Positions 4,345 through 25,422 are shown, counted from the first letter of the stretch. The stretch is DNA of 64,000 bases from Patescibacteria group bacterium (GCA_004297215.1 SCUM01000001.1:481181-545180), one strand, 5' to 3'. Notes: a model not told the origin generated them from the letters alone. Translations and numbers: made by a program.

Positions 4345-4389
4345 ACGTGGACATCTTGCCGGAGAAGGGGCAGGTTGTCCAAGCCCGAA

Positions 4390-6123: not shown

Positions 6124-9100
6124 TTAAGGCTGCACGATAACGTATCCATTGTAATTGACCCATGGATTATCATCCGGGCAGCCGGTACCACCAGGGCACT
6201 GCAAGGGACGGCACTCATTTTGACTAAGGCCACCCTGACTCTCACCGTCGTAACACTTATCCGATGCATCAACGCCACCGGGACAGACGCCTGTGCAATA
6301 TCCCCAATTATCCTTCACGAACACGCGGGGCTGGAACACGCAGGCGCCGCCGGCCTCTGGCACCTGGCCGCCCGTGCAGGGGGCGTTCAGCAGGCGGCCG
6401 TTATCCGGATCGATGCGGCAGGTGCGACCGGCGGTTTCCAGGTCGGCCACGAGCGTCGCGCTGCAGCGGTAGTCGTGAGAGTAGGATCTGTACGTAGAAT
6501 CGCATGCCCGCGGAGTGAGGCCGAAGTTTGCCGGGCTGCTCCCGCCGCAGATGGGTTCGCCGTCGCGCGTAGCGCCGCGGTGGTTCTTGTAGAAGTTCCC
6601 GTCGTCGGTGGAACCGCTCTGGCTGTCGGTGGGCCAGTCGGCAGGCCCGTTCCCAGGTCCAGGATGTCCGTCGCCCCAGTCCACCACGATGTTCTTGATG
6701 GGCATCTGGTTGGAATTCGCGTACGTATAGAAGCTCACGGCCACGTGCTGCCGGCCGTCGATGCCCTTCACGTTGCCGCCCGCGAGTTCGTTCACCGTGA
6801 AGGTGCCGGGCGACCCTTCTTCGCACGTGCTTCCCTCGCATTTCTCCACGGACGTCACGACGGGGACGGTGCCGGACTTATTCGAAAGGTCCAGATCATC
6901 CGACGTCGGGACGTATGCGCCGCCCGTTTCCCCGTCCGGATCGTCCTCAAAATCGTACTGGAATCGGTTGAACACCTTCGTGAAGAACCGCGAGATGCCG
7001 CTCTGCACGCTCACGCCGAATCCCGTAAGGCCGTTGTCAGGCGTCGGTGCGGCCGGATCGCTGCTCCCGACCGCCGCCAAACCCGCAAGCGTGGCCGACA
7101 CCTCGCCATTTACCGCCTTCCGCTCGTCGCCGCTGCCATCGACCGCATCCAAATCCTCGAACGGCCGCGCGAGCGCGAACGGGAGCATCCCTTCCTTCAG
7201 CGCCGGACCCTGCGCGTACTCCCCTTCGCCTGGATATGTGCGCGCGCCCGCAGAGCAGGCGTCGGCCAATGCGGTCTCGTCCCCGACATTCAAACCGATC
7301 GTGCCTATTCCCCCTCCGGTTCCCGCCCCATCATCGTCCGCGCACACCGGCAGCGGCCAGCTATCGCTCCCGACGACGTTTCGAGCCATCGCGAATTCGC
7401 CCGTATCGGGATCGCGCACGAACATCTCGTCCAGCAATGCGCGGCCGGCCGGGGTGGGGATCGTCTCCGGCCCGTACGGGAACGCTTGCCCGCCGTACGC
7501 GTACGATGACGTGAATCCGCTGTCACTCCAGAGGTTGTCGGTCTGCGCCTTGTTATCGAGCCCCTTGCTGCCGGTGCCTGTGACCTGCACGAGCTCCTGA
7601 CAGGCGTAGTAGGGATAGACGCTTCCGGTGACGAACGGCCCGTCGGACACGCATTCGTTCGCGTCGGAGAGGTCATCCACCGCCGAAGAGCCCAGGCAGA
7701 TTGTCATGCAGATCCCGAAGGATGTCCCGCCCACCACGTACGCGGCCGGGTTGCTCGCACAGCTCGCAAGGCAGTCTGCGAGATTGTCCGTTGCGGCTCC
7801 TGTGCCCTCGATCCGGCAATCATCCTTCACGGCGCAGCGTTTGCCAGTGAGGTCGCAGTGCTTCACCTTCGCGCCCGGGGCGCGATGGGCGATCCCGTAG
7901 GATCCTTGCGGGTCATTTTGCAGTCTTTCGTCATTGTTGTTGTCATCCTTGGGCGTCCCGTTGTCCGTCTGCACCCACCCGTACCCTCCCGGTCCCCACC
8001 CGCGGCCAGGCATCCCGTCGAACGTGCGGATCCAGATCGGGTCATAGCCGGTGCCTGGCGTCATGGGCACGCCGCGCACCGAGCAGTCCGCGAGATATTG
8101 GAAATCCGACACGCTCCCCGGGCCATTTGCGATGTCCCCAAGGCCGTACACAGGCGTCTCGAACACGGACGTACCTAGCTTGGAATAATGCGCGAGGCAA
8201 TCTTCTCCCGGGTTCGCCCCCGCCGCATGGTGAGAATTTTGGGGGATGCAGATGTACGGGCAGTCATCCGTGGGGCGCGTCTCGCTCACGGCTAACGGAT
8301 CAGGGATGCGCGGCTGATCGAAATCCGATGCGTTGTTCCCCGCTTTGCAGAATGTGCCTTTGTCTTTGGTCTCATCCGAACTCCCACCGTTCCCTTTCTC
8401 GTCGCTGTCGCAATAACCAAGCATGGCCACATACCCGTCCGGACAGAACGCGTTGCGGATGCAGCCGGTGTCATCGTTATTTTTTTGCGGAGAGTGGGAA
8501 TCATTCTTTTCCCCGTATGAACCAAAGTCGCAATAGCCGCCTGGCCCGGCTTCCGCATCGGACGCTGCGCACGCATAATCCACGCTCCGTGTATCAGGGT
8601 CGGGCGAAGTCGGAAGGCCTGTCGTAGAATCCAATTGCACGCCCAACGGCCACAAATCCGCATACACCGCCGTCTCCGCGCAGTAGTAGATTTCCCCGGT
8701 GGCGTCGGCCGGGCGCTCGAAGCCAGCTTCGATGGACTTGCCGAACAGGTCGGTGGCGCCGGAGAGCTGGTCCACGGGGAGCCAGGTGAGGCAAGAACGG
8801 TCGCTGGGATCCTGGCTTCCGAACAGCTGGAACGAGGAGTCGCGCTCGAGACAGTACCCTTCCCACCCGAGCAGGGTATCCTCGGCCGTGCGCTTGGAGC
8901 AGCTGCCCGGACGGAATCCGGCGCTCACGGGGTTTTCGGACGTCGGCGGAGTGCCGGAATCGCAATCGGCGTCGTATTCGCATTCCATCCCTTTCTTCTC
9001 CGGGTTGGTGCACACGCCCGTGGGCGGCGCATCGGCGCGATCCGTGCCGTAATACCTGGTGATGGCCCCGTCGCCGTACGTCACCTTCTGGTACGAACAC

Positions 9101-12100
9101 AGGCAGTCGTCGCTCGTCGCCCACCCCGAGCCGGATGCGACGGGGGCGCAGGTGTTGCTGCCGGAAAACTGGGGGATGAACGTAACCGGGGTCGGCGGTT
9201 GGAGATGTTCGCTGTCCCCGGCATTGATGTCAGGGCTATGCACCGAGACGATCTTCCCGGCGTCGAACGGCGAGGTGGGTTCGGGGTATGCGCGGCAAGC
9301 CGTGGACTCGGCGGTGGTGAGCTGAAGCTTGGCAATGCCGGAGACGTCGGTGAGGCAGCTGTCGTTGTAGCAGGCTCCAAGCTTCGCCTTGGCGCTCGAG
9401 ATGCACTGCTGCGTACCGGAACACGCGACGGAACCGTCGGGCGAACAGGTGTCATCGAGCGTCTTCAGCTGGTCCACGCACTTGAGGTCGTCACAGATGC
9501 GGAATCCGCTCGCCGTGCAATCCGCGTCGGTCACGCATCCGGCGTTGTTCGTGGCCTGGCAGAAGCCGAACACGCACGTGTCGTCGCTCACGGAGGAGGA
9601 ACAATCGTTGTCCGTGACGCATCCCGCGTTGGAGTTCTTGCAGAACCCGACGGCGCACGAACCGCCGCGGCCCACGCCGCCCGTTCCCGCTTCTTGGCAG
9701 CTTCCGGCCACGTAGGCGAGGCGGAAATCCTCCGGGGCGTCTTCGCAGGTCGCGTCCGAGGCGCAGTCGTCGTCGGAGGCGCAGGCGATCTCGCGACCGA
9801 CGATCGTGCCCGGAAGGGTGACGCCCAGGTCGAGGATGGGATTGAGATTGACGCCGCGGTTGGGGATATTGATGTTGACGGAGGGGGCGGAACCTTGGGC
9901 CGGGTTGCCGTCCGCATCCACGCACCACCTCCCCGGGTTCACGTTGACTTGCGACAGGAGGTCCATCGAAAGCTGGTTCGGGATGGCGTACCCGGAGTAC
10001 TCGAGCCCGTTCCAGCTCACGTCGCGGCTTGTGTAGACGGCCTCATCGAGCGTGATGGGCTGCGGGTCCACGAACCCGGCGCAGGCGTTGTCGCCGGTGC
10101 CTTGCCCGCGCGTCTCGCACAGCGCCAGGCCGTCGCAGATGGTGCGGAAGGTGGACGTGTTGGGGTCCCAGCTCGCGTGCGAGCTCGCGCACTGCAGCCA
10201 CTCCGCACAGTCGCGGTTGCGGTTCACCTTGATGACGTCGTTCGCGTCGTTCTTGAACGCGGCGTCGATGCTCACGGCGGCCACCGCGGTCCCGTCGCTG
10301 CCCTTGCCCGTGCGCAGGTCCACGCAGGTACCGGAAACGGCGTCGCCGCGGTCGTCTTCGAGCGACGGGCAGTCCGAGTCCACGAGGCAGGAACCGGCGT
10401 ACTCGGCGGCGGCATCGGCCGTGGACGTGTCAGAATTCCCCACGGCGAGGTCGCGATCCGCGCCCACGGGATAGCGGCACCGACGGCTGCACAGCGCCTG
10501 CGGGTCCGGAAGGCCGGCGAGATTCGCGAGGTCGTACCCGGCGGAGGTCGCGGGGCAAGACACCGGGTCGCGCAGGTCGAACGGGCGGCCGCCGAACAGC
10601 ACGTCGGCATGCTCGGAGGCCACGTAGCTTGGACCGGACGCGAACTTGAGCGACGGGTCGGTGACATTGCGGAACACGGCGCAGCCGAGCTTCTGGCTCA
10701 CCTGGCCTTCGCAGCGTTCGCTGCCGGTAGCGGTATCGGAGAGCGCATCATTATCGAGGAAGGTGTACTGCACCCCCTGCGGATACGCGCCGTGGTCGGT
10801 GTCGGACGGGTCCACGAACGCGGTGCACAGGTCGTACTGGGAGCCGCACTCCCCCACCCAGCCTTCGTAGCCGGCGTCGCCGTTGCGCCGTATGCCGAAC
10901 GTGTTGCCGCTGATCACGACGTCCTCGTCGCACGGGACGATCGTCCCCTTCACGAACCATCCCGAGGCGTTCTGGCCGCCCACCCTGATGTCGGTCTTGA
11001 ACTCGCAGCGCTGGTCGAGGGGATCCTTGAAGTAGAAGTTGCCGTCCTTGGTGGAGGAGAACTCCTGGCAGAACAGGTCCTCGTGCCCGCACAGCACCTG
11101 GTCGTACGTGTCCGGGTCGTCGATCACGAACGCGCTCGTAAACGAGGTGACCGCGGTCTTGTCCTGATTGAACTTGGGAGTGCCCACTTCGGTGCAGCCC
11201 ACGGCGGCCACGGAACACTGGTCGGAGCCGTCGTCCACGAGATAGAGCGGGGAGTCGTTGTACACGACGCGCGCCTCCGGGCCCATCGTCACGTTTGGCG
11301 TCCCCGGGGGGATCACGCCGTCAGCATCGAACAGGCAGAATCTCTTTCCCGGAGCGATCTGGCATGCCGTGCGGCCCTGCACCGCGCACGGGGTGAGGAC
11401 GGACACGGCCGCGCCACCCGTCGCGACGCAACGCGCGTTAAAGGTCTGGCCGTACTCCGACTCCGACGCATGCGTGTCGAAGAACGCTTCGCAGCCCACC
11501 GCCTGCTCGCTGCACAGCCGGCCGAAGCGGTAGAACTCGTCGGTCGCGCCTGCGCGATCCGTGTACGCTTCGCAGCCGAGATAGAACTGCGGCGCGTTCT
11601 GGCCGTTGGGGGCCGTGTCGCAGGAGGCCGGGGTTACCCAGGAATCCTTGATGAGCGCGAGCGTGTCGTCGGCCATGGTGACCCGGACGTTATCCAGGAA
11701 GAACTCGGTGCCGCCGCTCACGGCCGTGAACTGCAGGGCGGACTGGTCGTCGAACCCGTCGATCGTGGAGGAATCGATGGGGCCGAGGGAGTACGGCCGC
11801 CAGTCCGTGGTGAGGTCGGCTGGGACGTCCGAAATCGGGGAGGGCGTTCCATCGACGGGGCGGAACGCCACGTTCACGTCGCCGGTGCCACGCGCGAAGA
11901 AACTCACGGTAAACGTCCTCCCAGGGACGACGTTCCCCACAAACGGGCTCACGCTCCCTTCAAGGGTGGAAGCCCCTGCCCCGGCGGCGGCGTTGCTCAC
12001 GCGCAGCGAATGCCCGCCCGCGGAAACCGCGTCGTTGCTCACCGCGACCGTGGCGCTCCCCTGCGCGGTCCAGTCGGTCGCGCCGTTTTCCTCGAACGTC

Positions 12101-15100
12101 TCCTCAAGCACGGTGGCCACGTTGCGGCCCCCGCCGCCGGTGTAGGCGCGGCACCCCGCGGCAGAGGCGGGACATGAGCGCGATCGCGACGGCAGGCCGA
12201 AGTAATGGCATTCGCCGGAAGCGGTGAAGAACCCGCCCGTGACGAAACAGGTGTCCCGCGCCGCGGCGGGGTCGGAAACGAGCTGGGTCTTGCGGTACGG
12301 GTGGCAGCTCTCGTCCACGAACACCGTCTCGCTGAAGCGGCGGTAGTGGATGTCCCCGTCGCCGTCGTAGAATTCGCCGCAGTCGAGATCGGTGATGGTG
12401 TCGGAGTGCTCGTCGCACGCGGCGTCCGCGCGCGTCGCCGGATCCGCGTCGTCGCACCTGATCGAATTCGGGTCGTCCATCACCGTGGCCGTGCACGGCG
12501 CGTCGTCGCGATTGGACTTGAGCAGCTGCGTCGGGCGCAGCTGGAACCCCTGCGCCTGCGTGCCGGTCCAGGTGAAATAGGTGACGCGATCCGCCCCGGC
12601 TTGGACGGGGGTGGTGCACGCGCGCAAATCGGTGTAGTGCTCCACCGCTTCCCCGCCCGCGGCGAGCGTATCGAGGTTCGTGAACGCATCGCAGCCGACG
12701 TTTGCCTCGGAACAGGCCTGTGCGGTCGTCGGGATGAAATTCACCGGGAACGCGGAGGCCTCGTACTTGGTTTCCTCCTGCTTGAACGCGGCGTACCCCA
12801 CGCACGCGGCCGGGCAGCGGTCGATGTCGGAGGCGACGGCCGAGACGGACGGGTCGCCGTCCTCGGGCCGGTAACGCTCGCACCCGACGTCCACGGCCGC
12901 GCACACGGGCGCGAAGCCGGCGCATTCCTTGGGATCCGTGGGCAATCCGCGGCAGTCGAGGTAGCTCGGCGGAACCTTGAGCGAGGCGACGGCCGCGTCC
13001 ACGTTGCCGGCATACCCGTCGGTGAACGGCGTGGCGTTTTCTCCCCGTTCAAGTTGCACCGAGTCGAGCGTTGCGCCGGACGGGGCGCTGAACGAGACGC
13101 TCGCGAGCGCGTTTGCGGGGAGGCTGAACGTGCAGGTCGTCGCGGCGTACGCCGCCGAAAGATTCGGCGCGGCCTGCACCTGGTTGCGCGGGGCAGCGGC
13201 GCCGATCACGGCGCACCCGCGCGTGGAGACATTGGTGAGGTCGATCGCGACGCCGGCAAGGGTGGTGAGCGTGACCGTCCCGACGGCCGTGCCGCTCCCC
13301 TTCGCCTCAAAGCTCAAGGTATAGAAGGAATCCTTGGACAAGAACACGCCGGATTGCGAAATCGTCCCATTCGTCCCGGATCCGATCCCCACGGCATCGG
13401 ACCCCTGATCGGCGCCGAGCGCATCGGAGTACGTGACGGCCGATCCGAGCTGCCAGCCTTCGACGACGGGCGGGCTCCCGGCCGTGCCGCGCTCGAAGCT
13501 CCCGTTCTGCAACAGGTTGAAGGTGACGTTTTCCGCGCGAAGCAGCCCGGCGCATCCGGCATCGTTGCCGTTGCAGGACTTCACGTCATTGTTGAAATAC
13601 GCGCGATCCCTGAACGCGTCCTGGGCGGCGTCCTTGGCGGCGACCACGTACGTTTGGCCGGCGGGGAGGAACTCGAACGTGTCATCGGCCGTGTCCGACG
13701 CGGTCCCGTGCGTATCCGGGAACTTGTTCACCCTGGACCACAGGCAGCCGGCGTTCCCGGAGTTGCAGCCGGCGAAATCCACGGTGTTGAGCAGGAACCC
13801 GTTGCGCTGGTTCGTCTGCGTGTTCTGGAGCGCCAGGCACCCGGCGAAGTCGGCCGGACAGGCGTCGCCGCGGAACTGCCAGACGTTCTTCTCGCGCACG
13901 CAGTAGCCGAACCCGCCCGTGCACTCGCCGTCGGCGTTCTCGGACAGGCAGCTCGGGGTGTCTGCGCACACCGGGGCGCGCGCGCCGGAGTTCGCCGCCG
14001 CGAGCGTCTCGCCGTTCACGAACGCGCGGCACTGGGTGTCGGGATACTTGAGGATCCAATTTGGATCGATGAGGTGGCACCAGCGGTGCATGTCGTCGGC
14101 GGTCCCTGCGGCATTGCAGTCGTCAAACCCGGCGATCACGTCCTCGAGCTTCACCGTCTCGTTGGGCTTCACCTTCCCCGCCGCCATCTCCCAGCCGATG
14201 GGGAGGATGCGCGCCTTGCGCAGCTTCACCAGATTGCCGAAACAATAGGCGCTGTCCTTGCACAGGATGTCCTGGTTCTTGGGGTCGTCGGGTCGCACGA
14301 GCGGCCAATCCTTGTGGATGAACCGCTCCTCGATCGCCTGCGCGACCGTGAGCGGATTGTCCGTGGCTCCGCGCGAGACCGCTTGGAAGAACGGCTGGTC
14401 GATGACGCAATGGTTGGGTCCGCGCATGACCACCCCGCCCGTGGGACAGGTGATGAATTCGCCGAGGATGTTGTAGTTGTCGACCGACGTGGGCGTGACC
14501 GCGATCAGCTTGGAGAAGTGCTCCTGGGCCTGCTCGCGCGCGTTGCTGACCACGGCAAGCGAATCGAACGGATTGCTCGGGAGCTCCGGGGCCGGGAAGA
14601 AACCCTCGTAAAGCTGCTGCGTCCATTTGGAGCCGAGGGTGCTCGTGAACACGCCCACCGTATGCCAGAGCATCCCCCACCAGAACTGCGGGTTGGCCGC
14701 GATGAGCGCCGCCACCCGCTCCTGCTTCTTCTCGTCCTTGCCCACGTTGGCGTGCAGGAAATCCTCGCGCAGGAGGACGGCGGGGGTCTTTATCTGGCCG
14801 GTCACCACGTCGGTGACGTCCTTGAATCCGCCGTTGAACTCCCGGTCGAGCAGGTCGAGGGTGCGCTTCTTGTTGTATTCCTCGCGCGTGGAGAAGGCGA
14901 GGTCGATGGACATGGACAGCTCGTTCTGGCCCGGTCGCAGCCCCTGCGCAAACGCGGCGAGCACGGGGCCGGTGGGATCCTTGGCGAGTTCCGCGGCCGA
15001 AGAAAGGAAGCTATTCCAGTTCTTGCCAATGGAAAGGAAATCGCATTTGGGCTTCTGTACCGTGTAAGATGCCTTGATGCCCAACGAGAGCGCAAGCTTG

Positions 15101-15627
15101 AAACCGTCCGTAAGCAGGCCTGGGTTGCAGATGTCGAACTTGAAGCCGGTGAGCTCGCCGAACCCGGTGTTCAGGAAATCCATGGACCCCCCCACGATGT
15201 CGAGGCCGATCGGATTGTTCCCGGAATCGAGCGGGTCGAACACGTGGTAGAGCGGCTGGTCGCCCTTTCCGCCGCTTGCCACGAACAGGGCGGACTCGTA
15301 CGCGAGGCGATCGAGCACGAACGACATGAAATCGAACAGGGCGAACACGATGTTCGCCTCTACGATCGGCTTGAGCATCCCCTTGTCCACGGTCTCGATG
15401 GAGGCCGCCGCATGTTCCGCGATGCACCCCTCGCTGTTACCGGCAACGACAGGACAAGGGACGGCTTTCAGCGCCGCCTCCGTTGCGGGCACGGCCGGAC
15501 TGGACGCGCTTTCATCCGCATGCGCAGGAACGGCAAGGAAGAACCCGATGATCGAGACCGAACATACGATCGCGACCGCCCCGGCGACCCATCGGCTCAA
15601 CGCTGGAATGCCTCCCGTTCTACGCAT
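6124..15627 (-). CDS. Giant secreted Cys-rich surface protein (3167 aa).
   Basis: Single 9.5-kb ORF with cleavable signal MRRTGGIPALSRWVAGAVAIVCSVSIIGFFLAVPAHA. More than 150 Cys. Repeated modules such as GFCKNSNAGCVTDNDC / GFCQATNNAGCVTDADC. All overlapping opposite-strand ORFs are Arg/Pro-rich shadows. Confidence 0.85.
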   Translation of the reverse strand: MRRTGGIPALSRWVAGAVAIVCSVSIIGFFLAVPAHADESASSPAVPATEAALKAVPCPVVAGNSEGCIAEHAAASIETVDKGMLKPIVEANIVFALFDFMSFVLDRLAYESALFVASGGKGDQPLYHVFDPLDSGNNPIGLDIVGGSMDFLNTGFGELTGFKFDICNPGLLTDGFKLALSLGIKASYTVQKPKCDFLSIGKNWNSFLSSAAELAKDPTGPVLAAFAQGLRPGQNELSMSIDLAFSTREEYNKKRTLDLLDREFNGGFKDVTDVVTGQIKTPAVLLREDFLHANVGKDEKKQERVAALIAANPQFWWGMLWHTVGVFTSTLGSKWTQQLYEGFFPAPELPSNPFDSLAVVSNAREQAQEHFSKLIAVTPTSVDNYNILGEFITCPTGGVVMRGPNHCVIDQPFFQAVSRGATDNPLTVAQAIEERFIHKDWPLVRPDDPKNQDILCKDSAYCFGNLVKLRKARILPIGWEMAAGKVKPNETVKLEDVIAGFDDCNAAGTADDMHRWCHLIDPNWILKYPDTQCRAFVNGETLAAANSGARAPVCADTPSCLSENADGECTGGFGYCVREKNVWQFRGDACPADFAGCLALQNTQTNQRNGFLLNTVDFAGCNSGNAGCLWSRVNKFPDTHGTASDTADDTFEFLPAGQTYVVAAKDAAQDAFRDRAYFNNDVKSCNGNDAGCAGLLRAENVTFNLLQNGSFERGTAGSPPVVEGWQLGSAVTYSDALGADQGSDAVGIGSGTNGTISQSGVFLSKDSFYTLSFEAKGSGTAVGTVTLTTLAGVAIDLTNVSTRGCAVIGAAAPRNQVQAAPNLSAAYAATTCTFSLPANALASVSFSAPSGATLDSVQLERGENATPFTDGYAGNVDAAVASLKVPPSYLDCRGLPTDPKECAGFAPVCAAVDVGCERYRPEDGDPSVSAVASDIDRCPAACVGYAAFKQEETKYEASAFPVNFIPTTAQACSEANVGCDAFTNLDTLAAGGEAVEHYTDLRACTTPVQAGADRVTYFTWTGTQAQGFQLRPTQLLKSNRDDAPCTATVMDDPNSIRCDDADPATRADAACDEHSDTITDLDCGEFYDGDGDIHYRRFSETVFVDESCHPYRKTQLVSDPAAARDTCFVTGGFFTASGECHYFGLPSRSRSCPASAAGCRAYTGGGGRNVATVLEETFEENGATDWTAQGSATVAVSNDAVSAGGHSLRVSNAAAGAGASTLEGSVSPFVGNVVPGRTFTVSFFARGTGDVNVAFRPVDGTPSPISDVPADLTTDWRPYSLGPIDSSTIDGFDDQSALQFTAVSGGTEFFLDNVRVTMADDTLALIKDSWVTPASCDTAPNGQNAPQFYLGCEAYTDRAGATDEFYRFGRLCSEQAVGCEAFFDTHASESEYGQTFNARCVATGGAAVSVLTPCAVQGRTACQIAPGKRFCLFDADGVIPPGTPNVTMGPEARVVYNDSPLYLVDDGSDQCSVAAVGCTEVGTPKFNQDKTAVTSFTSAFVIDDPDTYDQVLCGHEDLFCQEFSSTKDGNFYFKDPLDQRCEFKTDIRVGGQNASGWFVKGTIVPCDEDVVISGNTFGIRRNGDAGYEGWVGECGSQYDLCTAFVDPSDTDHGAYPQGVQYTFLDNDALSDTATGSERCEGQVSQKLGCAVFRNVTDPSLKFASGPSYVASEHADVLFGGRPFDLRDPVSCPATSAGYDLANLAGLPDPQALCSRRCRYPVGADRDLAVGNSDTSTADAAAEYAGSCLVDSDCPSLEDDRGDAVSGTCVDLRTGKGSDGTAVAAVSIDAAFKNDANDVIKVNRNRDCAEWLQCASSHASWDPNTSTFRTICDGLALCETRGQGTGDNACAGFVDPQPITLDEAVYTSRDVSWNGLEYSGYAIPNQLSMDLLSQVNVNPGRWCVDADGNPAQGSAPSVNINIPNRGVNLNPILDLGVTLPGTIVGREIACASDDDCASDATCEDAPEDFRLAYVAGSCQEAGTGGVGRGGSCAVGFCKNSNAGCVTDNDCSSSVSDDTCVFGFCQATNNAGCVTDADCTASGFRICDDLKCVDQLKTLDDTCSPDGSVACSGTQQCISSAKAKLGACYNDSCLTDVSGIAKLQLTTAESTACRAYPEPTSPFDAGKIVSVHSPDINAGDSEHLQPPTPVTFIPQFSGSNTCAPVASGSGWATSDDCLCSYQKVTYGDGAITRYYGTDRADAPPTGVCTNPEKKGMECEYDADCDSGTPPTSENPVSAGFRPGSCSKRTAEDTLLGWEGYCLERDSSFQLFGSQDPSDRSCLTWLPVDQLSGATDLFGKSIEAGFERPADATGEIYYCAETAVYADLWPLGVQLDSTTGLPTSPDPDTRSVDYACAASDAEAGPGGYCDFGSYGEKNDSHSPQKNNDDTGCIRNAFCPDGYVAMLGYCDSDEKGNGGSSDETKDKGTFCKAGNNASDFDQPRIPDPLAVSETRPTDDCPYICIPQNSHHAAGANPGEDCLAHYSKLGTSVFETPVYGLGDIANGPGSVSDFQYLADCSVRGVPMTPGTGYDPIWIRTFDGMPGRGWGPGGYGWVQTDNGTPKDDNNNDERLQNDPQGSYGIAHRAPGAKVKHCDLTGKRCAVKDDCRIEGTGAATDNLADCLASCASNPAAYVVGGTSFGICMTICLGSSAVDDLSDANECVSDGPFVTGSVYPYYACQELVQVTGTGSKGLDNKAQTDNLWSDSGFTSSYAYGGQAFPYGPETIPTPAGRALLDEMFVRDPDTGEFAMARNVVGSDSWPLPVCADDDGAGTGGGIGTIGLNVGDETALADACSAGARTYPGEGEYAQGPALKEGMLPFALARPFEDLDAVDGSGDERKAVNGEVSATLAGLAAVGSSDPAAPTPDNGLTGFGVSVQSGISRFFTKVFNRFQYDFEDDPDGETGGAYVPTSDDLDLSNKSGTVPVVTSVEKCEGSTCEEGSPGTFTVNELAGGNVKGIDGRQHVAVSFYTYANSNQMPIKNIVVDWGDGHPGPGNGPADWPTDSQSGSTDDGNFYKNHRGATRDGEPICGGSSPANFGLTPRACDSTYRSYSHDYRCSATLVADLETAGRTCRIDPDNGRLLNAPCTGGQVPEAGGACVFQPRVFVKDNWGYCTGVCPGGVDASDKCYDGESQGGLSQNECRPLQCPGGTGCPDDNPWVNYNGYVIVQP

Positions 15628-16337: not shown

Positions 16338-17267
16338 TTATACCACATCAAGCGCCCGAGCGAGCGAAACCCATTCATCCACAGCGAGCGTCTCGGCTCG
16401 AGCCTTCGGATCGAGCCCGGCCTTCGACAGCATTTCCTTCACTTGTCCGGTCGTCCCATACCCTGCCGCGACCAGATTCCCGTGCAATTGCTTGCGCGGA
16501 TGGGAGAAACCGGCTTTCGCGAGGCGTATCACCTTCTCCCTCGGCGCGACCCCCTCATGCTCCCCCTTTCCAAGGGGGAGATAGCTCGTTTCCGCTACCC
16601 TCCCCTTGGAAAGGGGAGGCATGGCGGGGTCTGTGCGCAGGTCGAGCCTCACCACCGCCGAATCCACCTTCGGAATCGGCCGGAACGCCCCGCGGGGCAC
16701 GTTCGTCACCTTTCGGACGTCGGCGTACAGCTGACAGACGACGGACAAGAGCCCCATGTCTCCCGGCTTGGCCGTGATGCGGTCGGCCACCTCCTTCTGG
16801 ACCATGAGCACCATTCGCGACGGCCGCGGCTCGTGTGCCAAAAACCGCTCGAGGATGGGCGAGGTGATGTGGTAGGGGATGTTGGCGACGAGCTTGAAAG
16901 CTCCACCCACGACCCCCTCATGCTCCCCCTTTCCAAGGGGGAGATAGCTCGCTTCCGCTACCCTCCCCTTGGAAAGGGGAGGCATGGTGGGGTCTGTGCG
17001 CAGGTCGAACTTGAGAGCGTCGCCTTCCACGAGCGTGATGCGGTCACCGAACCGTTCACGGAGTCCCGGAATCAGGTCGTGATCCGCTTCGATGGCGGTC
17101 ACCTTGGCGCCGGCGTCGACAAGGGCCTGCGTGAGCACGCCGGTGCCGGGGCCGATTTCGAGCACGGCCTCGCCCAGGACGATCCCGGCAGCCGAAACGA
17201 TCTTCCGCAGGACGGAGGCGTCCTGGAGGAAGTTCTGTCCGAATGATTTCTTGGCGCGAGGAAGCAT
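16338..17267 (-). CDS. rsmA: 16S rRNA (adenine1518/1519-N6)-dimethyltransferase with two in-frame 32-aa insertions.
   Basis: KsgA motifs QNFL, VLEIGPGTG, NIPYHITSPI and SHPRKQL. Two extra segments DLRTDP(T/A)MPPLSKGRVAE(A/T)SYLPLGKGEHEGV have no counterpart in canonical KsgA. Confidence 0.85.
   Translation of the reverse strand: MLPRAKKSFGQNFLQDASVLRKIVSAAGIVLGEAVLEIGPGTGVLTQALVDAGAKVTAIEADHDLIPGLRERFGDRITLVEGDALKFDLRTDPTMPPLSKGRVAEASYLPLGKGEHEGVVGGAFKLVANIPYHITSPILERFLAHEPRPSRMVLMVQKEVADRITAKPGDMGLLSVVCQLYADVRKVTNVPRGAFRPIPKVDSAVVRLDLRTDPAMPPLSKGRVAETSYLPLGKGEHEGVAPREKVIRLAKAGFSHPRKQLHGNLVAAGYGTTGQVKEMLSKAGLDPKARAETLAVDEWVSLARALDVV
16548..16645. repeat. 98-bp double-hairpin palindromic element, copy A, inside the ksgA coding region.
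   Basis: gaccccctcatgcTCCCCCTTTCCAAGGGGGAGatagctcgtttccgctaCCCTCCCCTTGGAAAGGGGAGGcatggcggggtctgtgcgcaggtcga. About 97% identical to copy B. Confidence 0.8.
16911..17008. repeat. 98-bp double-hairpin palindromic element, copy B, inside the ksgA coding region (direct repeat of copy A).
   Basis: Same sequence as copy A with 3-4 substitutions. The unique flanks differ. The two copies are 363 bp apart. Confidence 0.8.
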
Positions 17268-17340: not shown

Positions 17341-18282
17341 TCATGCTTGAGATTTCAGATGCGTCCTCATCCATGCCACCGTCTTCGCGAGCCCCTCCTC
17401 GAGGCCGACGGCCGGTTCCCATCCGAGGACCCGTTTGGCGAGCGACGCGTCGAGCACGCTCCGGCGTTCCTCGCCGCGGACCTCCGGGCCCGAACCGATC
17501 TTCCCGCGATAACCCGTTTCGCGCCGCAGCAGCCGGACGATCCCGTTCACCGACGTCTCGCGGCCGGTCGCGATGTTGAATACCCCGTGCGCGGACGGCT
17601 TCATCGCGAGAAGGTTCGCCCTGACGACGTCATCGACGTACACGAAATCCCGGCTCTGCTTGCCGTCGCCGTACACGACCGGCGTCTTCCCGGCGAGCAT
17701 CTGGCGCGCGAACACGCTCACCACCCCCGCTTCGCCTCGCGCGCCTTGCCTGGGACCATAGACGTTGGCGTACCGCAGCGCCACGTACGGCAACCCATGC
17801 GTATGGCACACGCTGTGCAGGTAGAGCTCGAACGCGAGCTTGGAAACCCCGTAGGGGGAACGCGGCAGGCTCGGGACGTTCTCGGGGGTCGGGATGACCT
17901 TGAGCCCGTGATAGATGGCGCCGCCCGAAGAGGAGAAGACGAGCCTCTTCGCCTTGGCGCGCACGCACCCCTCCAGCACCCGCAACCCGCCGATCACGTT
18001 CACGCGCGCATCGCGGATCGGCTCGCGCACCGACACCCGCACGTCGATCTGCGCGGCCATGTGGAACACGACGTCGGGCTTGAGCTTCTCGATGAGCGCG
18101 GAAACCTTCGGGCTCTCGACGGAGAGCCTGAAGAAGGTCGCGTTCGGGTTCAGGTTGTCCCGCCGCCCGAGGGAGAGGTCGTCGATGACGTACGTCTTGA
18201 TGCGGCGTCGGATGAGGGCGTCCGAGAGGTGCGACCCGATGCACCCGGCGCCTCCGGTGACGAGCGCGCGTTTGTATCTCAT
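17341..18282 (-). CDS. NAD-dependent epimerase/dehydratase (UDP-glucose 4-epimerase / UDP-sugar epimerase family).
   Basis: Rossmann motif VTGGAGCIGSHL at the N-terminus, YxxxK catalytic region, and extended SDR architecture. Start at MRYKRALVTGG. Confidence 0.8.
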   Translation of the reverse strand: MRYKRALVTGGAGCIGSHLSDALIRRRIKTYVIDDLSLGRRDNLNPNATFFRLSVESPKVSALIEKLKPDVVFHMAAQIDVRVSVREPIRDARVNVIGGLRVLEGCVRAKAKRLVFSSSGGAIYHGLKVIPTPENVPSLPRSPYGVSKLAFELYLHSVCHTHGLPYVALRYANVYGPRQGARGEAGVVSVFARQMLAGKTPVVYGDGKQSRDFVYVDDVVRANLLAMKPSAHGVFNIATGRETSVNGIVRLLRRETGYRGKIGSGPEVRGEERRSVLDASLAKRVLGWEPAVGLEEGLAKTVAWMRTHLKSQA

Positions 18283-18342
18283 AGTTCGTAGTGCGTAGGT
18301 GGTAGTGCGTAGGTGGTAGGACGAAATCCTACGCACTACGTA
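18283..18342. promoter_or_regulatory. Intercistronic hairpin / tandem repeat between prfB and the epimerase gene.
   Basis: gtagtgcgtaggtg occurs twice in tandem and is followed by its inverted copy cctacgcactac, giving a perfect 12-bp stem. Confidence 0.35.
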
Positions 18343-19462
18343 CTACCCCCTACCCCCTTTTAATTCCAGCTGCAAATAGGCTTCCATGAACGGCTCAAGC
18401 TCGCCGTTTAGCACTCCCTCGGCGTCGCTCGTCTCGTACCCGGTGCGGTGGTCCTTCACCAGCTTGTACGGATGCAGCACGTAGGAACGGATCTGGTTGC
18501 CCCATTCCGCGCTCTGGTAGTCGCCGCGCAGCCCCGCCTCCTTGGCCCGGCGCTCTTCCTCCTGCCTGGCCACGAGCTTTCCCATCAGGATCTTCATGGC
18601 GGTCTCGCGGTTCTGCTTCTGGCTGCGCTCGTTCTGGCACTGCACCGTGATGCCGGTCGGGACGTGCACGATGCGCACCGCGGAGTACGTGGTGTTCACG
18701 CTCTGGCCGCCCTTCCCTCCCGACATGAACGTGTCGATGCGCAGGTCCTTCTCGTCGATCTTGATGTCGGGCAGCTCGTCGAGCTCCGGCACGGCCTCGA
18801 CGAGCGCGAAGGTGGTGTGGCGCATCTTCTCGGCGTCGAACGGGGAAATGCGCACGAGGCGGTGCACGCCGTGCTCGGACTTGAGGTAGCCGTACGCGTG
18901 CCGGCCCGTGATGCGGAAGGTGATGCTCTTGAAGCCGACGTCGCCCCGGCTCTCGTCGAGCACGTCCACCTCGAAGCCCTTGGCTTCGGCGAAACGCATG
19001 TACATGCGGAACAGCATCGCGCTCCAATCGTTCGCCTCGGTGCCGCCGGAGCCGGCATGGATGGACAGGATGGCGTTGCTGCCGTCGTAGGGCCCGGAGA
19101 ACAGCACGGCGAACTCCATCTTGGCGAACCGCTCCTCGAACCCCTTGAGTGACGCGGCGATCTCGTCGCGCATCCCCCCCTGCCCTGAGCTCGTCGAAGG
19201 GTCCGCGTCGGCGAGCTCCGCGACGTCCTTCAGGTCGGAAATCTCCTTCAAGAAGGACTCCCAGGATCCCACTTCGCCCCGCAGGTCCGCCGCGCGCTTG
19301 CCCACCTTGCGCGCGTGCTCCTGGTCGCTCCAAAAATCCGCCGATTCCATCTCGGCTTCGAGCGCCTTCACCTCCGTCTTGACCGTATCGAGGTCAAAGC
19401 AACCCCCACGTGCGCAGGACGCGCTCGCGGAGGGCTTCGATCTGGCGGATGAGGTCTTTCAT
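18343..19462 (-). CDS. prfB: Peptide chain release factor 2, made by a programmed +1 frameshift.
   Basis: ORF1 MKDLIRQIEALRERVLRTWGLL ends at the classic shift site CTT TGA C (plus-strand 19393-19399), preceded by the internal SD-like GGGGG. The +1 frame continues DLDTVKTEVKALEAEMES… and includes the GGQ motif (SGGKGGQSVNTT). Confidence 0.85.
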
Positions 19463-19550
19463 ATCGAGAGGTCGTAAAGGTGGTAAGGGTCGTAAAGGTG
19501 TTGGAATCTTTTTTAAAAAATTTCCTTCACCTTTATCACCTTTCAAACCT

Positions 19551-19883
19551 TTACAACTTTATCGTCTTCGCGAACTTCCCCAGCACGGGCATCTCCCACT
19601 GCTTCCCGTTGTACGCGTTCACCATCCCGAGGATCATCAGGCAGAACAGGGCGAGGGAACCGAAGAGCCACACGACCGGTCCGATGGGCGGCACCGCGAT
19701 GCCGGCCCACAGGAGGATGAGGGCGATGAGCAGCACGAGCCCTTGCTTGCCATGGAACCGGGCGAACGGACTGTCCTTCGCGAGGAGCAACGGGACGAGG
19801 CACAGGATGCCGAGATAGCCGATGGCGGCAATGGCGCGGTTCTCCTGCGCGTCGTCGATGGGTTGTTTGGCTGAGTCTGACAC
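19551..19883 (-). CDS. Small membrane protein (DUF4870-like).
   Basis: Two or three hydrophobic helices (AAIGYLGILCLVPLLLA, LVLLIALILLWAGIAVPPIGPVVWLFGSLALFCLMILG). The ORF-track N-terminus (MKPFRFSF…) is the translated TIR element, so the true start is probably the GTG near 19883. Confidence 0.5.
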   Translation of the reverse strand: MSDSAKQPIDDAQENRAIAAIGYLGILCLVPLLLAKDSPFARFHGKQGLVLLIALILLWAGIAVPPIGPVVWLFGSLALFCLMILGMVNAYNGKQWEMPVLGKFAKTIKL

Positions 19884-23210: not shown

Positions 23211-24482
23211 TCAACCTTTCCCCCGTACGACCGAGGCGCCCGCCACGGCGGCGAGCGACAGCCCGGCCCAGAGGCTCCACAGGTAATGGTCGAACAGGCC
23301 AAGGGTGATGAGCAAGACGGTTCCGGAGAGGGCAAAGACGCGTTCGGAGCGGACGTGGATTCCGTTCACCGCCTTCCATCCGCGACGCAAGAACGGAAGG
23401 GAGGCGAACAATCCTACGAGGCCCACCTCGACGAGATACAAGAGGAATGCGTTATGGACCGGCTGATATTCGTACGCCGGCGCGCCGGGTCGGAACGTGG
23501 AAAGCGCGAGGGTGTAGAGCGACGGGCCCACTCCGGTGACCGGGCTGATCGCAAAGGCCTCGGGAGCCTCTCGGTACGAAGCCGAACGCTCGGCGAGCGA
23601 ACGGGCCTCGAGGCGCGCGCCGGGAGTGAAGCGCGTAAAAAGCTGGGTGTGGAACACGAGCATGGTGATGACGAGCGCCAGCAGCGATGCCCAGATGAGC
23701 GGCAGCCCGGCGTGCGCGCGAAGGCGGCCGTGCCACATGAGCGCCGCGACCACGAACCCGAGCGAAAGCGCCGCGGCAAGCCAGGCACCGCGTGAGAAGG
23801 TGATGACGAGCGTCGCGGCGAGGAGCATGGCGGGCAACGCGAGATGGTGTCGGCGCGCGTGGTCGCGCAAACGCGACGCGAGGACGGCCAGGGCCCAAAG
23901 CCCGACAGCCAAAAATCCACCGAACACGTTCGGATGCGGGAACGGGCCGTAGGCGCGCAGCGTGCGCTCCCCTGCCGCCGACTCGACGACCGACTGCCCG
24001 AGCGTCGCGGCATCATGACCGGCAAGCCCGAGCCATTTCTGCGGGAATGACGAGCCGGCAATGACCTGGTCCCAGCCGAGCAACGCCGCGGGGATGAGCC
24101 CGACGACGAATGCCGTGAGCGCCTGCGTCGCGTCCGTGCGTTCGTCGAGCAGGAGCAGGAACAGGAGCGCGGCCATGGCGGCATGGAAGGTGGCGCCTAG
24201 CGCGACCGCGGGGATGGGCGTGAAGACGGACGAGAACGCGCAGGCGAGGAGGATCCACGAGAGCGGGATCGCGAATCGCGACCTGTCGCCGAGCCGAAGA
24301 CGGCCGTAGAGCGCGGCGGAGGCGAGCACGAGCAGCTCCGCGGCGTAGAGGGAGACGGTGCCGTACTCCCAGGGGAGACCGTCCATCTTTCCGGATACGA
24401 CGATCCAACGCGTCTGCCAAGGAAGCAGCACGAGGGCGAGCAGGAGGGCGAAGCGCCCGAGGCGTTCACGCGTCATAGGCAT
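23211..24482 (-). CDS. O-antigen ligase family membrane protein (Wzy_C/RfaL-like).
   Basis: At least 10 predicted TM helices. Motifs GPFPHPNVFGGFL, ITFSRGAWLA and PVHNAFLLYLVEVGLVGL are typical of O-antigen polymerase/ligase domains. Confidence 0.7.
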   Translation of the reverse strand: MPMTRERLGRFALLLALVLLPWQTRWIVVSGKMDGLPWEYGTVSLYAAELLVLASAALYGRLRLGDRSRFAIPLSWILLACAFSSVFTPIPAVALGATFHAAMAALLFLLLLDERTDATQALTAFVVGLIPAALLGWDQVIAGSSFPQKWLGLAGHDAATLGQSVVESAAGERTLRAYGPFPHPNVFGGFLAVGLWALAVLASRLRDHARRHHLALPAMLLAATLVITFSRGAWLAAALSLGFVVAALMWHGRLRAHAGLPLIWASLLALVITMLVFHTQLFTRFTPGARLEARSLAERSASYREAPEAFAISPVTGVGPSLYTLALSTFRPGAPAYEYQPVHNAFLLYLVEVGLVGLFASLPFLRRGWKAVNGIHVRSERVFALSGTVLLITLGLFDHYLWSLWAGLSLAAVAGASVVRGKG

Positions 24483-25422
24483 AGGTCCGGCAAAGGGCCA
24501 TCCATCGGTCGCGGTATTCCGCACGGCGGTCGTTTTCGTGGAACTTGAGCATCTCGTCGTTCACCACCACGCGGGAGTCGCGGTTCATGAGGGTGCGCAG
24601 GGAGTGCGGGAGGCGGCGGAGTTGGATCCAGCGGGCCAGACGCTCGACATGTCCACCACGTCCAACACCCGGTGTTGGACGTGTCGTTTCCTTAGGAAAA
24701 CCAGGGTTCTCAAGATCTCGATTTTCAAAATCGCCAGGTTTTTTACAAAAACTGGAATTCCCAACACCAGGTGTTGGGTCCTGTGAACGGACATCTCCGT
24801 ACACCGTCCGCAGCGACCGGATCCACACCTCCAGATACGGATCCCCTCCCGGCAAAGCGAGCGTCTCGAGGGCGGGCGCGGCCGTGGACGCGAAGAAGCT
24901 GAAGCAGAACGGGTCGCGCGCGCCGTCTTCGGGCCTCTGGCGCAGGATCGCGAATGGCGTGACGCACATGAGCCGCGCGGTCCAGGTAAGCCCCGGCATC
25001 GTGCGTACGAACAGGTCGATGTCGCTCTCCGGCCGCGTATGCATGAACGCGAGCGTGTTCGCGGCCGCGACGGCGCGCACGCCCGGGACACGACGAAGGA
25101 ATCGGACGGCGCGGCGAAGGGCACGCATCTTGCGCAGCGCGTCACGACGACGCGCGTGGCGCGTACGCGCGAGCGCCACGGCGTCAGTGCCCGGAAGCGC
25201 ATGGAAGCCGTCCTTAGACGGGTATCCCCCGCCCCGTAGCGCGGCATCGACCTCGTCGAGGGACGGCTTCTCGCCCGTGACGAACAACCATTTCCAGGTC
25301 TCGAACGCCGTGGGGGCGTAGTCAAAAAGCGAAAACCAAGCGAGGGTCCGGAGAATGGCCTTGTGGAGCGCTTCGTCCATAAACGCAAAGGATGCCCGTC
25401 TGGGGCATCCTACATGCTTCAT
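24466..25422 (-). CDS. Hypothetical protein (possible minimal nucleotidyltransferase-like motif) that contains an in-frame REP doublet.
   Basis: A 318-aa ORF reads through two REP palindromes (translated PTPGVG…PTPGVG). TRPESDIDLFV resembles an NTase hG[GS]…DxD motif. Overlaps the ligase start by about 17 nt. Confidence 0.45.
   Translation of the reverse strand: MKHVGCPRRASFAFMDEALHKAILRTLAWFSLFDYAPTAFETWKWLFVTGEKPSLDEVDAALRGGGYPSKDGFHALPGTDAVALARTRHARRRDALRKMRALRRAVRFLRRVPGVRAVAAANTLAFMHTRPESDIDLFVRTMPGLTWTARLMCVTPFAILRQRPEDGARDPFCFSFFASTAAPALETLALPGGDPYLEVWIRSLRTVYGDVRSQDPTPGVGNSSFCKKPGDFENRDLENPGFPKETTRPTPGVGRGGHVERLARWIQLRRLPHSLRTLMNRDSRVVVNDEMLKFHENDRRAEYRDRWMALCRTYAYDA
24660..24778. 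repeat. REP doublet with an AT-rich spacer (BIME-like), located inside an ORF.
   Basis: gtccaacacccggtgttggac (24660-24680) and cccaacaccaggtgttggg (24760-24778) flank an 80-bp low-GC spacer. Confidence 0.75.

What the first reader, a model, noticed from the sequence alone, without database searches (positions are those of the whole stretch)
16548..17008. Two in-frame insertions of a 98-bp double-hairpin palindromic element inside ksgA (like Rickettsia RPEs)
ksgA/rsmA contains two nearly identical (about 97%) 98-bp direct repeats, at 16548-16645 and 16911-17008. Each consists of two 9-bp-stem hairpins (CCTCCCCTT-TCC-AAGGGGAGG and CTCCCCCTT-GGA-AAGGGGGAG) separated by a short spacer. Both are inserted in frame, and each adds the 32-aa peptide DLRTDP(T/A)MPPLSKGRVAE(A/T)SYLPLGKGEHEGV. 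The insertion points are surface loops of KsgA (after the DALxFDL motif and after VDSAVVRL), so the enzyme core stays intact. A selfish palindromic element colonising a coding sequence in frame is rare outside Rickettsia. The two direct repeats could also mediate deletion of the catalytic core.
Basis: seen in the sequence. Interest (0 to 1): 0.85.

Follow-up and report, generated by a model that had tools for sequence, protein, structure and literature searches.

The report
Hairpin repeat inserted twice in ksgA
A 99-base hairpin-forming DNA repeat sits in frame in two flexible surface loops of the ribosome-maturation enzyme KsgA of a tiny uncultured bacterium (Patescibacteria); it is real, but small palindromic repeats tolerated inside genes have already been described in several other bacterial groups.

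Summary
Two 99-nt direct repeats (16547-16645 and 16910-17008, 97/99 identical) lie in frame inside a 309-aa RsmA/KsgA gene (16338-17267, minus strand). Each repeat is a nested palindrome: an ~84-nt long hairpin whose arms each hold a 9-bp hairpin. Most of 119 Uhrbacteria-type orthologs lack both segments. AlphaFold2 gives an intact KsgA core with both inserts as low-confidence coil.

- The unit has the architecture of a REP dimer (REPIN-like).
- I found no copy outside ksgA in the window, JGI metagenomes, viral contigs or 1.84 billion protein representatives, so mobility is unproven.
- The closest ortholog has a homologous one-arm remnant at site 1, read in a different frame, so site 1 was occupied long ago.
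- Both loops vary widely in length across orthologs.
- The window also holds a RAYT-like transposase gene with a different hairpin family. One unit of that family is also inserted in frame in another gene.
- Two REP dimers in one gene are already published (Di Nocera 2013), so "rare outside Rickettsia" is overstated.

Verdict: a new member of a known kind, of modest interest.

The parts
16338..17267 (-). rsmA/ksgA gene (16S rRNA adenine dimethyltransferase), 309 aa, host of both repeat units
   Evidence: ORF. Pfam RrnaAD at E 1.3e-51. Identical to NCBI protein P0001 on an 842,311-bp Patescibacteria contig. Conserved synteny prfB-epimerase-ksgA-~200-aa gene-~3100-aa gene in relatives. AF2 model matches solved KsgA structures.
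16910..17008 (-). Repeat unit at protein site 1 (residues ~88-120, DLRTDPTMPPLSKGRVAEASYLPLGKGEHEGV), between the GDALKF strand and the NIPY motif
   Evidence: Sliding-window MFE outlier at z -6.5. The junction is reproduced by the independent contig L130.
16547..16645 (-). Repeat unit at protein site 2 (residues ~208-240, DLRTDPAMPPLSKGRVAETSYLPLGKGEHEGV), in the linker after VDSAVVRL
   Evidence: Sliding-window MFE outlier at z -6.5. The site is empty in P0002 and in most orthologs.
16911..16994 (.). 84-nt nested palindrome of unit 1: two 38-nt arms, 82% complementary, 8 nt apart. The inner hairpins are at 16923-16943 and 16962-16982.
   Evidence: I4, I5, I6. Fold (-80.5 kcal/mol for 123 nt).
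16548..16631 (.). 84-nt nested palindrome of unit 2. The inner hairpins are at 16560-16580 and 16599-16619. On the coding strand it reads CATG-[stem-TCC-stem]-GTAG-spacer-CTAT-[stem-GGA-stem]-CATG.
   Evidence: I2. Folds (RNA -75.4 kcal/mol, z -6.6).

Best explanation
Each 99-nt unit is a REP-dimer-type (REPIN-like) nested palindrome: two short GC-rich hairpins in inverted orientation that together fold into one long hairpin. It sits as passenger DNA in two insertion-tolerant, disordered surface loops of KsgA.

Shown:
- Both units keep the frame.
- They are absent from most orthologs.
- They leave the methyltransferase core and its EIGPGTG and NIPY motifs intact.
- They lie in the two loops of KsgA that vary most in length across Uhrbacteria.
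- The sister lineage has a one-arm remnant at site 1, translated in another frame and with a compensatory stem change. What is conserved is therefore the DNA/RNA hairpin, not the peptide.

Inferred:
- Site 1 was occupied before the two lineages split.
- The site-2 copy, or the near-identity of the two copies, is recent. It arose either by a local hop of the element or by copying between the two sites.
- Propagation of such elements in this genome is by a single-strand, hairpin-recognising HUH/Y1 (RAYT/IS200-like) transposase. A candidate gene with its own, different hairpin family lies 12 kb away, and that family has also landed in frame in another gene.
- The inserts are probably neutral or slightly deleterious for KsgA, rather than functional.
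For: - Repeat and nested palindrome.
- In-frame indels relative to orthologs with conserved synteny.
- Loop lengths in 120 orthologs: site 1 is 15-51 aa (median 19) and site 2 is 11-46 aa (median 16). 22 other orthologs carry expansions of at least 12 aa.
- AF2: 223 residues at pLDDT >= 90, inserts coil with pLDDT below 50. Foldseek TM to KsgA structures is 0.80-0.86.
- P0002 site-1 remnant: local alignment score 18 against a shuffle mean of 6.9, sd 1.3, 0 of 2000 shuffles. It is the best-matching place in its locus. It is read as TLSLTRRG where ours reads PPLSKGR.
- Both differences between the two copies fall at unpaired positions of the long hairpin.
- The same nested architecture occurs in many cyanobacterial and other genomes.
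- RAYT-like ORF at 4552-5199, flanked by doublets of TCCAACACCNGGTGTTGGA.
- Two hairpins of that family bound a ~118-nt segment read in frame inside ORF 24466-25422. The closest orthologs lack it.
- Published precedent for intragenic REP dimers, including two per gene: PMC3733652.
Against: - No third copy of this unit was found in the 64-kb window, a 3.5-kb extension, relatives' loci, JGI metagenomes or IMG/VR. No protein among 1.84 billion cluster representatives carries the peptide.
- Both known copies are in one gene, in the same orientation and frame. That is more expected from a local copy than from a dispersed family.
- No cognate transposase was found. The RAYT-like gene in the window scores below the curated cut-offs (20.4 vs 23 bits; 33 vs 80 bits) and is flanked by a different hairpin.
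- GTAG adjoins only one arm (the other has ATAG), and it lies 3' of the hairpin. From my own knowledge, canonical REPs are written 5'-GTAG-hairpin.
- The unit is asymmetric, with a 14-nt tail on one side. Removing exactly 99 nt would leave both loops shorter than in any of the 119 orthologs (12 vs at least 15 aa; 6 vs at least 11 aa). The repeat therefore probably includes or replaced native loop codons.
Confidence: 0.55

Rival explanations
1. Private intragenic copy. A single old hairpin insertion at one loop was copied to the other loop of the same gene, or the two copies are kept identical. The mechanism would be template switching or gene conversion seeded by the shared TCGACCTG (…DL…) microhomology, with no transposase and no dispersed family.
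For: - Only two copies are known, both in ksgA, in the same orientation and frame, 97/99 identical.
- Nothing was found elsewhere.
- The repeat carries 14 nt of non-palindromic sequence on one side. That sequence encodes DLRT, and 'LDLR' is native at site 2 in some orthologs such as P0010 and P0105.
- Near-identity of the copies although site 1 seems old.
- GC content equals that of the genome (64.6% vs 65.0%).
Against: - A non-tandem copy 363 nt away, landing exactly in the second permissive loop, still needs a mechanism.
- The REP-dimer architecture is typical of families that multiply (PMC3337134, PMC3733652).
- The same genome has another hairpin family in frame in another gene, plus a RAYT-like gene.
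- Only about 8% of the genome could be inspected.
Confidence: 0.25
2. Selected function. The inserts are kept because the hairpins (in mRNA or DNA) or the added loops do something. Candidates are control of ksgA expression or mRNA decay, an altered 30S interaction in a lineage with unusual ribosomes, or a recombination switch that deletes the catalytic core.
For: - A hairpin is retained at site 1 in two lineages, with one compensatory C-G to T-A change.
- The two differences between the copies avoid paired positions.
- The open reading frame is maintained.
- Recombination between the repeats would give an in-frame 188-aa product lacking NIPY.
Against: - The peptide is not conserved. P0002 reads the hairpin in another frame.
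- The inserts are predicted to be disordered.
- Most orthologs have neither insert, and the loops hold unrelated sequences of many lengths.
- No curated RNA family matches. There are only far-sub-threshold hits to generic miRNA-hairpin models.
- Only two changes and one compensatory pair are available, which is too little for statistics.
Confidence: 0.1
3. Assembly artefact. The short-read MAG assembly placed one repeat twice.
For: The genome is a metagenome-assembled genome. Repeats longer than the k-mer length are classic misassembly points. The independent Logan contig stops inside the repeat, and the site-2 junction could not be checked.
Against: - The Logan contig L130 reproduces the site-1 junction and the copy-specific base with 0 mismatches over 1387 nt.
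- The copies differ at two positions and have different flanks.
- Both keep the frame and fall exactly in the two loops that tolerate insertions in orthologs.
- NCBI annotates an intact protein.
Confidence: 0.03

Closest known systems
Intragenic REP dimers of the GTAG/CGTC REP superfamilies (Di Nocera, De Gregorio & Rocco 2013, PMC3733652), e.g. Opitutus terrae and Thioalkalivibrio uvrA genes carrying two REP dimers
   Same: - Short GC-rich stem-loops (9-bp stem, 3-nt loop) paired in inverted orientation into a larger hairpin.
- The dimer encodes about 30 aa.
- It lies in frame in a housekeeping gene, with two dimers at different sites of one gene.
- Proposed to be tolerated because the sites are flexible loops.
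   Different: - The host is Patescibacteria, a phylum not covered in that survey.
- The family is not shown to be multi-copy.
- The GTAG tag is on one arm only, and its polarity is uncertain.
- There is no sequence similarity to any listed family that I could test.
REPINs and their RAYT transposases (Bertels & Rainey 2011, PMC3116915; PMC3337134)
   Same: Two REP-like palindromes in inverted orientation, separated by a short spacer and forming one long hairpin of about 85-100 nt. A one-arm 'singlet' remnant exists in a sister lineage, as described for decaying REPINs. A RAYT-like gene is present in the genome.
   Different: REPINs are overwhelmingly extragenic, number tens to hundreds per genome, and flank their cognate RAYT. 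Here only two copies are known, both inside a gene, and the nearby RAYT-like gene is flanked by a different hairpin.
Rickettsia palindromic elements, RPE (Ogata et al. 2000, 2002; summarised in PMC10969869)
   Same: A palindromic repeat inserted in frame in genes for conserved enzymes, adding a peptide at a surface position compatible with the fold.
   Different: RPEs are about 100-150 bp, belong to defined Rickettsia families with dozens of copies, and (RPE-4/6) carry a CGTC tag. Our unit has no CGTC, is in an unrelated phylum, and has only two known copies.
Cyanobacterial nested palindromes GATCCCCC…CCCCCTT-loop-AAGGGGG…GGGGGATC seen in loci L001-L120 and L126-L129. They may correspond to small dispersed repeats or MITEs described for cyanobacteria, but I could not verify the name.
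   Same: Nearly the same layout: an outer inverted repeat (GAYCCCC…GGGGRTC) enclosing two CCCCTT-NNN-AAGGGG hairpins in opposite orientation, about 76-85 nt in total.
   Different: - The cyanobacterial elements have AT-rich spacers and loops.
- None of 141 instances has our CATGC outer motif or our TAGC/GCTA inner motif.
- BLAST similarity is limited to one 22-23-nt hairpin.
- Common descent is not shown.

Membership tests
REP dimer / REPIN | Two short palindromes in inverted orientation, separated by a short spacer, able to fold into one long hairpin | tested here: met
   38-nt arms, 82% complementary, 8 nt apart. Each arm holds a 9-bp stem with a 3-nt loop. RNA MFE is -75.4 kcal/mol, z -6.6.
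REP dimer / REPIN | Multi-copy family dispersed in the genome, mainly extragenic | tested here: inconclusive
   Only two copies in 64 kb, both intragenic. None was found in a 3.5-kb extension or in relatives' loci.
REP dimer / REPIN | Cognate RAYT (Y1/HUH transposase) gene flanked by the same REP | tested here: inconclusive
   The RAYT-like ORF at 4552-5199 scores Pfam Y1_Tnp 20.4 bits (cut-off 23) and NCBIfam REP_Tyr_transpos 33 bits (cut-off 80). Its best PDB match is the ISDra2 TnpA HUH motif at E 0.32. It is flanked by a different hairpin, TCCAACACCNGGTGTTGGA. No transposase flanked by the ksgA-type hairpin lies in the window.
GTAG REP superfamily (Di Nocera 2013) | Unpaired GTAG (allowed degeneracy GYAG, GYRG, GTRG, GTMG) directly at one end of the stem-loop | tested here: inconclusive
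   The coding strand reads …AAGGGGAGG-GTAG-CG for one arm. The other arm has ATAG, which is changed at position 1 and is not among the listed variants. Both tags face the spacer, which is 'TT dimer' geometry. GTAG lies 3' of the hairpin, whereas from my own knowledge canonical REPs are 5'-GTAG-hairpin. The paper's text did not settle the polarity.
Rickettsia palindromic elements (RPE) | Palindromic repeat inserted in frame in conserved protein genes at fold-compatible surface positions | tested here: met
Rickettsia palindromic elements (RPE) | Member of one of the RPE sequence families; CGTC tag for RPE-4/6; tens of copies per genome | tested here: not met
   The unit contains no CGTC or GACG on either strand (sequence). 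Only two copies are known. The host is a different phylum. Direct alignment to RPE consensus sequences was not possible because none were available.
MITE | Terminal inverted repeats plus target-site duplication | tested here: inconclusive
   The outer arms GACCCC…GGGGTC act as inverted termini. No convincing target-site duplication exists: only TCG is present at both ends of the 99-nt unit, and the unit is asymmetric.
RsmA/KsgA (host gene) | RrnaAD domain with the SAM-binding GxGxG motif and the catalytic N-(L/I)-P-Y motif; two-domain KsgA fold | tested here: met
   Pfam PF00398 at 175.7 bits. EIGPGTG and NIPY are invariant in the alignments. Matches to PDB KsgA at E 4.6e-38. AF2 model TM 0.80-0.86 to 3fut, 3fuv and 1qyr.

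The most novel reading that the evidence does not exclude
In Uhrbacteria, and perhaps more widely in Patescibacteria, hairpin elements would systematically occupy permissive loops of essential genes in frame and be maintained at the nucleic-acid level. The ksgA pair would then have a role, for example:
- an RNA-level control of KsgA expression; or
- a repeat-mediated on/off switch that deletes the catalytic core in frame (a 188-aa product) and so generates cells with unmethylated 16S rRNA.
Probability: 0.08. Interest if true: 0.6.

Novelty: new member of a known kind. Interest (0 to 1): 0.35.

Why it matters
Intrinsically, this is one more example of small palindromic repeats surviving inside genes by landing in loops that tolerate extra residues. 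Three aspects give it modest value.

1. The setting is Patescibacteria. I found no paper linking REP/RAYT-type elements or in-frame palindromes with this group. Their small genomes might make intragenic landings relatively more visible, though I did not measure coding density here.
2. Comparison with the sister lineage shows the hairpin conserved while the encoded peptide is not. That is a clean illustration that selection or element turnover acts on the DNA/RNA rather than on the protein.
3. Two loops of KsgA emerge as recurrent insertion-tolerant sites across about 120 Uhrbacteria orthologs. This is useful for annotation (length outliers are not misassemblies) and for engineering KsgA.

For genome scanning, it warns that 99-nt intragenic repeats break short-read assemblies, as the Logan contig shows.

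Tried and rejected
- **Genome-contig scan.** The pattern CCCCTTNNNAAGGGG…CCCCTTNNNAAGGGG was too loose.
- **First metagenome scan.** The strict two-arm pattern with CATGC flanks gave 0 hits.
- **Second metagenome scan.** With fixed loops and free flanks it gave 4 hits, all of the cyanobacterial type.
- **Viral scan.** 0 hits.
- **Peptide search.** A concatenated six-frame peptide query returned one irrelevant ORF and did not even recover our own KsgA, so it is uninformative.
- **Exhaustive HMMER search.** The peptide profile gave 5 weak hits, all unrelated tandem-repeat ORFs. Only 50%-identity cluster representatives are searched, so copies inside non-representative proteins would be missed.
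- **Extending the genome beyond the window.** Three of four attempts failed on start-codon guesses. One gave 3.5 kb with no copies.
- **Are the other orthologs' inserts all strong hairpins?** My first impression was tempered. The P0013 inserts and the P0002 site-1 hairpin reach only z -3.6 against shuffles, P0003 site 2 is not significant (z -1.3), and none is a 3-SD outlier in 90-nt windows.
- **The very stable hairpin at aa 237-249 of P0002.** It is native GC-rich sequence, not an insert.
- **Rfam.** Only far-sub-threshold hits to generic miRNA-precursor hairpin models.
- **GTAG tag as proof of REP membership.** Rejected as inconclusive: it is on one arm only and its polarity is doubtful.

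Full report

Yes. The repeat finder reports two copies of a 99-nt sequence at 16547-16645 and 16910-17008. They are 98% identical and 363 nt apart. Both lie inside the minus-strand ORF 16338-17267 (309 aa).

- The ORF is a 16S rRNA adenine dimethyltransferase: Pfam RrnaAD at E 1.3e-51 and E 4.6e-38 to solved KsgA chains.
- It is identical to an NCBI protein from a Patescibacteria MAG on an 842,311-bp contig.
- Corrections: the unit is 99 nt (33 codons), not 98 nt (32 aa). It is also more than two hairpins side by side. Two 38-nt arms, 82% complementary and 8 nt apart, make one nested ~84-nt palindrome that folds as a single long hairpin (RNA -75.4 kcal/mol, z -6.6; DNA z -5.2).
- In a 90-nt sliding window over the gene, the two units are the only outliers (z -6.5 each).
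- Three of the six frames of the unit are open.

**2. Is it an assembly artefact?**

Probably not. A contig from an independent assembly (Logan, run SRR8426588) matches window 18353-16967 without a mismatch. It covers the site-1 junction and 42 nt of the repeat, including the base that distinguishes copy 1 from copy 2. It then ends inside the palindrome, as de Bruijn assemblies do at real repeats. I could not get the equivalent check for site 2.

**3. Are the units insertions?**

- Orthology is firm. The closest relatives share the gene order prfB, epimerase, ksgA, a ~200-aa gene and a ~3100-aa gene.
- Most of 119 Uhrbacteria-type orthologs lack both segments.
- The two positions are the most length-variable parts of the protein. 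The stretch between D83 and N129 is 15-51 aa (median 19; ours 45). The stretch between A204 and E244 is 11-46 aa (median 16; ours 39). 22 other orthologs have expansions of at least 12 aa at one or both loops.
- Several of those expansions look like translated hairpins. At the DNA level, three of the four other insert segments I could read fold moderately better than shuffles (z -3.6), and one does not. The statement that all these inserts are palindromic elements is therefore not established.
- An AlphaFold2 model built on the 120-sequence alignment has pTM 0.83 and 223 residues at pLDDT >= 90. Both inserts are coil with pLDDT below 50. The model superposes on solved KsgA structures with TM 0.80-0.86.

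**4. How old are they, and what is conserved?**

- The closest ortholog (P0002, 74-75% identical in the aligned columns) has an empty site 2.
- At site 1 it has a 48-nt extra segment containing one hairpin followed by GTAGCG. That segment aligns with the left arm of our unit. The local score is 18 against 6.9 ± 1.3 for shuffles, with 0 of 2000 shuffles reaching it, and it is the best match in the whole locus.
- The stem differs by one compensatory C-G to T-A change.
- The hairpin is read in a different frame (TLSLTRRG there, PPLSKGR here).
- So site 1 was probably already occupied in the common ancestor, and what persists is the nucleic-acid hairpin, not the peptide.
- Against that background, the 97/99 identity of our two copies means a recent copy to site 2 or homogenisation between the sites. 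Both differences lie at unpaired positions of the long hairpin, but two changes are too few to argue selection.

**5. Is it a mobile family?**

This is the weak point. I found no third copy in any of these:

- the window;
- 3.5 kb beyond it, or the relatives' loci;
- JGI metagenomes, where a strict pattern gave 0 hits and a looser one gave 4 hits, all cyanobacterial-type;
- IMG/VR;
- 1.84 billion protein cluster representatives searched with a profile of the insert peptide in both orientations.

About 92% of the source genome could not be read.

Two further points matter. The unit is asymmetric, with 14 nt (TCGACCTGCGCACA, encoding DLRT) on one side of the palindrome. Removing exactly 99 nt would also leave both loops shorter than in any ortholog (12 vs at least 15 aa; 6 vs at least 11 aa). 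The repeat therefore probably includes or replaced native loop codons. That fits two readings: an IS200/IS605-like element whose end lies outside the hairpin, or a conversion tract that carried flanking sequence.

**6. Context in the same window**

- ORF 4552-5199 lies in a low-GC island (51% against 65%).
- It is a distant Y1/HUH transposase relative: Pfam Y1_Tnp 20.4 bits (below the 23-bit cut-off), NCBIfam REP-associated tyrosine transposase 33 bits (below 80), and a best PDB match to the HUH motif of ISDra2 TnpA at E 0.32.
- It is flanked by doublets of another hairpin, TCCAACACCNGGTGTTGGA.
- Two more of these hairpins, at 24661 and 24760, bound a ~118-nt, 46%-GC string of stem-loops (z -5.7). 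This segment is read in frame inside ORF 24466-25422 (NCBI EPO34_02555).
- The five closest orthologs lack it. A sixth has a single PTPGVG, the translation of that hairpin, in the same loop.
- So hairpin repeats landing in frame in genes are a habit of this genome, and a candidate enzyme class is present. That enzyme's own repeats are not the ksgA ones.

**7. Comparison with what is known**

- Di Nocera et al. (PMC3733652) already report REPs inside genes in several phyla. More than half of those inserts are dimers or groups encoding 20-30 aa, and some genes (Opitutus terrae and Thioalkalivibrio uvrA, R. conorii uvrB) carry two at different sites. They suggest the inserts are tolerated in flexible linkers or loops.
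- A 2024 review calls in-frame MITE fusions 'not unusual', with Rickettsia RPEs as the extreme case (PMC10969869).
- The loose genome scan also showed that cyanobacteria, and a few Planctomycetota, Latescibacterota, Alphaproteobacteria and others, carry elements with almost the same nested layout (GATCCCCC…two CCCCCTT-loop-AAGGGGG hairpins…GGGGGATC). None of 141 instances has our flank or spacer motifs, and similarity is limited to one 22-23-nt hairpin.
- Membership of the GTAG superfamily is inconclusive: GTAG is on one arm, ATAG is on the other, and the polarity is doubtful.
- Membership of the RPE families is not met: there is no CGTC tag, the phylum is different, and only two copies are known.
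- No curated RNA family matches.

**8. Verdict**

The finding is real and correctly described, apart from small details. The most likely reading (0.55) is a REP-dimer-type palindromic repeat carried as passenger DNA in two permissive loops of KsgA. Site 1 is old, and the second copy, or the identity of the two, is recent.

- The main rival (0.25) is a private intragenic copy without any mobile family.
- A selected function (0.10) and misassembly (0.03) are less likely.

It is a new member of a known kind. The setting in Patescibacteria, the hairpin-but-not-peptide conservation, and the recurrent use of the same two KsgA loops give it modest interest (0.35).

Noticed in passing
window 4381-5228 (ORF 4552-5199 +): A 215-aa RAYT/IS200-like Y1 (HUH 'NHYHFLL') transposase candidate in a low-GC island (51% against 65%). 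It is flanked by doublets of the hairpin TCCAACACCNGGTGTTGGA at 4381-4444 and 5165-5228, plus a single copy at 4525-4543. This is a REPtron-like arrangement in a Patescibacteria genome. All family scores are below the curated cut-offs.
   Followed up: partly
window 24661-24778, inside ORF 24466-25422 (-), NCBI EPO34_02555: A ~118-nt, 46%-GC string of stem-loops bounded by two of the RAYT-type hairpins. It is read in frame (DPTPGVGNSSFCKKPGDFENRDLENPGFPKETTRPTPGVG) in a conserved hypothetical protein. The five closest orthologs lack it, and another (P0128) has a single PTPGVG in the same loop.
   Followed up: yes
KsgA orthologs P0002-P0120 (alignment A6): Two KsgA loops are hypervariable in length across Uhrbacteria-type orthologs (15-51 aa and 11-46 aa). 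22 of 119 orthologs have expansions of at least 12 aa. Several have peptide motifs typical of translated hairpins (PSLAGG, PLLYKEGMKGW, PPWQGE, PPLKGGQ). One ortholog (P0115) has inserts elsewhere, in the N-terminal part of the protein.
   Followed up: partly
loci L001-L120 and L126-L129: Cyanobacteria, and a few Planctomycetota, Latescibacterota, Alphaproteobacteria, Meiothermus, Cloacimonadota and FCB MAGs, carry ~76-nt nested palindromes (GATCCCCC…CCCCCTT-loop-AAGGGGG ×2…GGGGGATC) with the same architecture as the ksgA unit. Some occur as tandem arrays (L002, L026). I could not verify their published name.
   Followed up: partly
window 18282-18353: An inverted repeat, plus what looks like an internal direct repeat, of GTAGTGCGTAGG-type sequence, between the prfB stop and the likely epimerase start. 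It may be a terminator or another small repeat family.
   Followed up: no
window 19471-19557: An imperfect 43-nt-arm palindrome (74% complementary, 1 nt between the arms) just upstream of the prfB ORF.
   Followed up: no
window 6124-15627 (-): A 3167-aa ORF. Its syntenic counterparts in relatives are 3102-3146 aa and have no Pfam hit on record.
   Followed up: no
window 18343-19371 (-), prfB: The release factor 2 ORF contains 'DADPSTSSGQGGMRDE', which looks like a possible short hairpin-derived insert. I did not compare it with orthologs.
   Followed up: no
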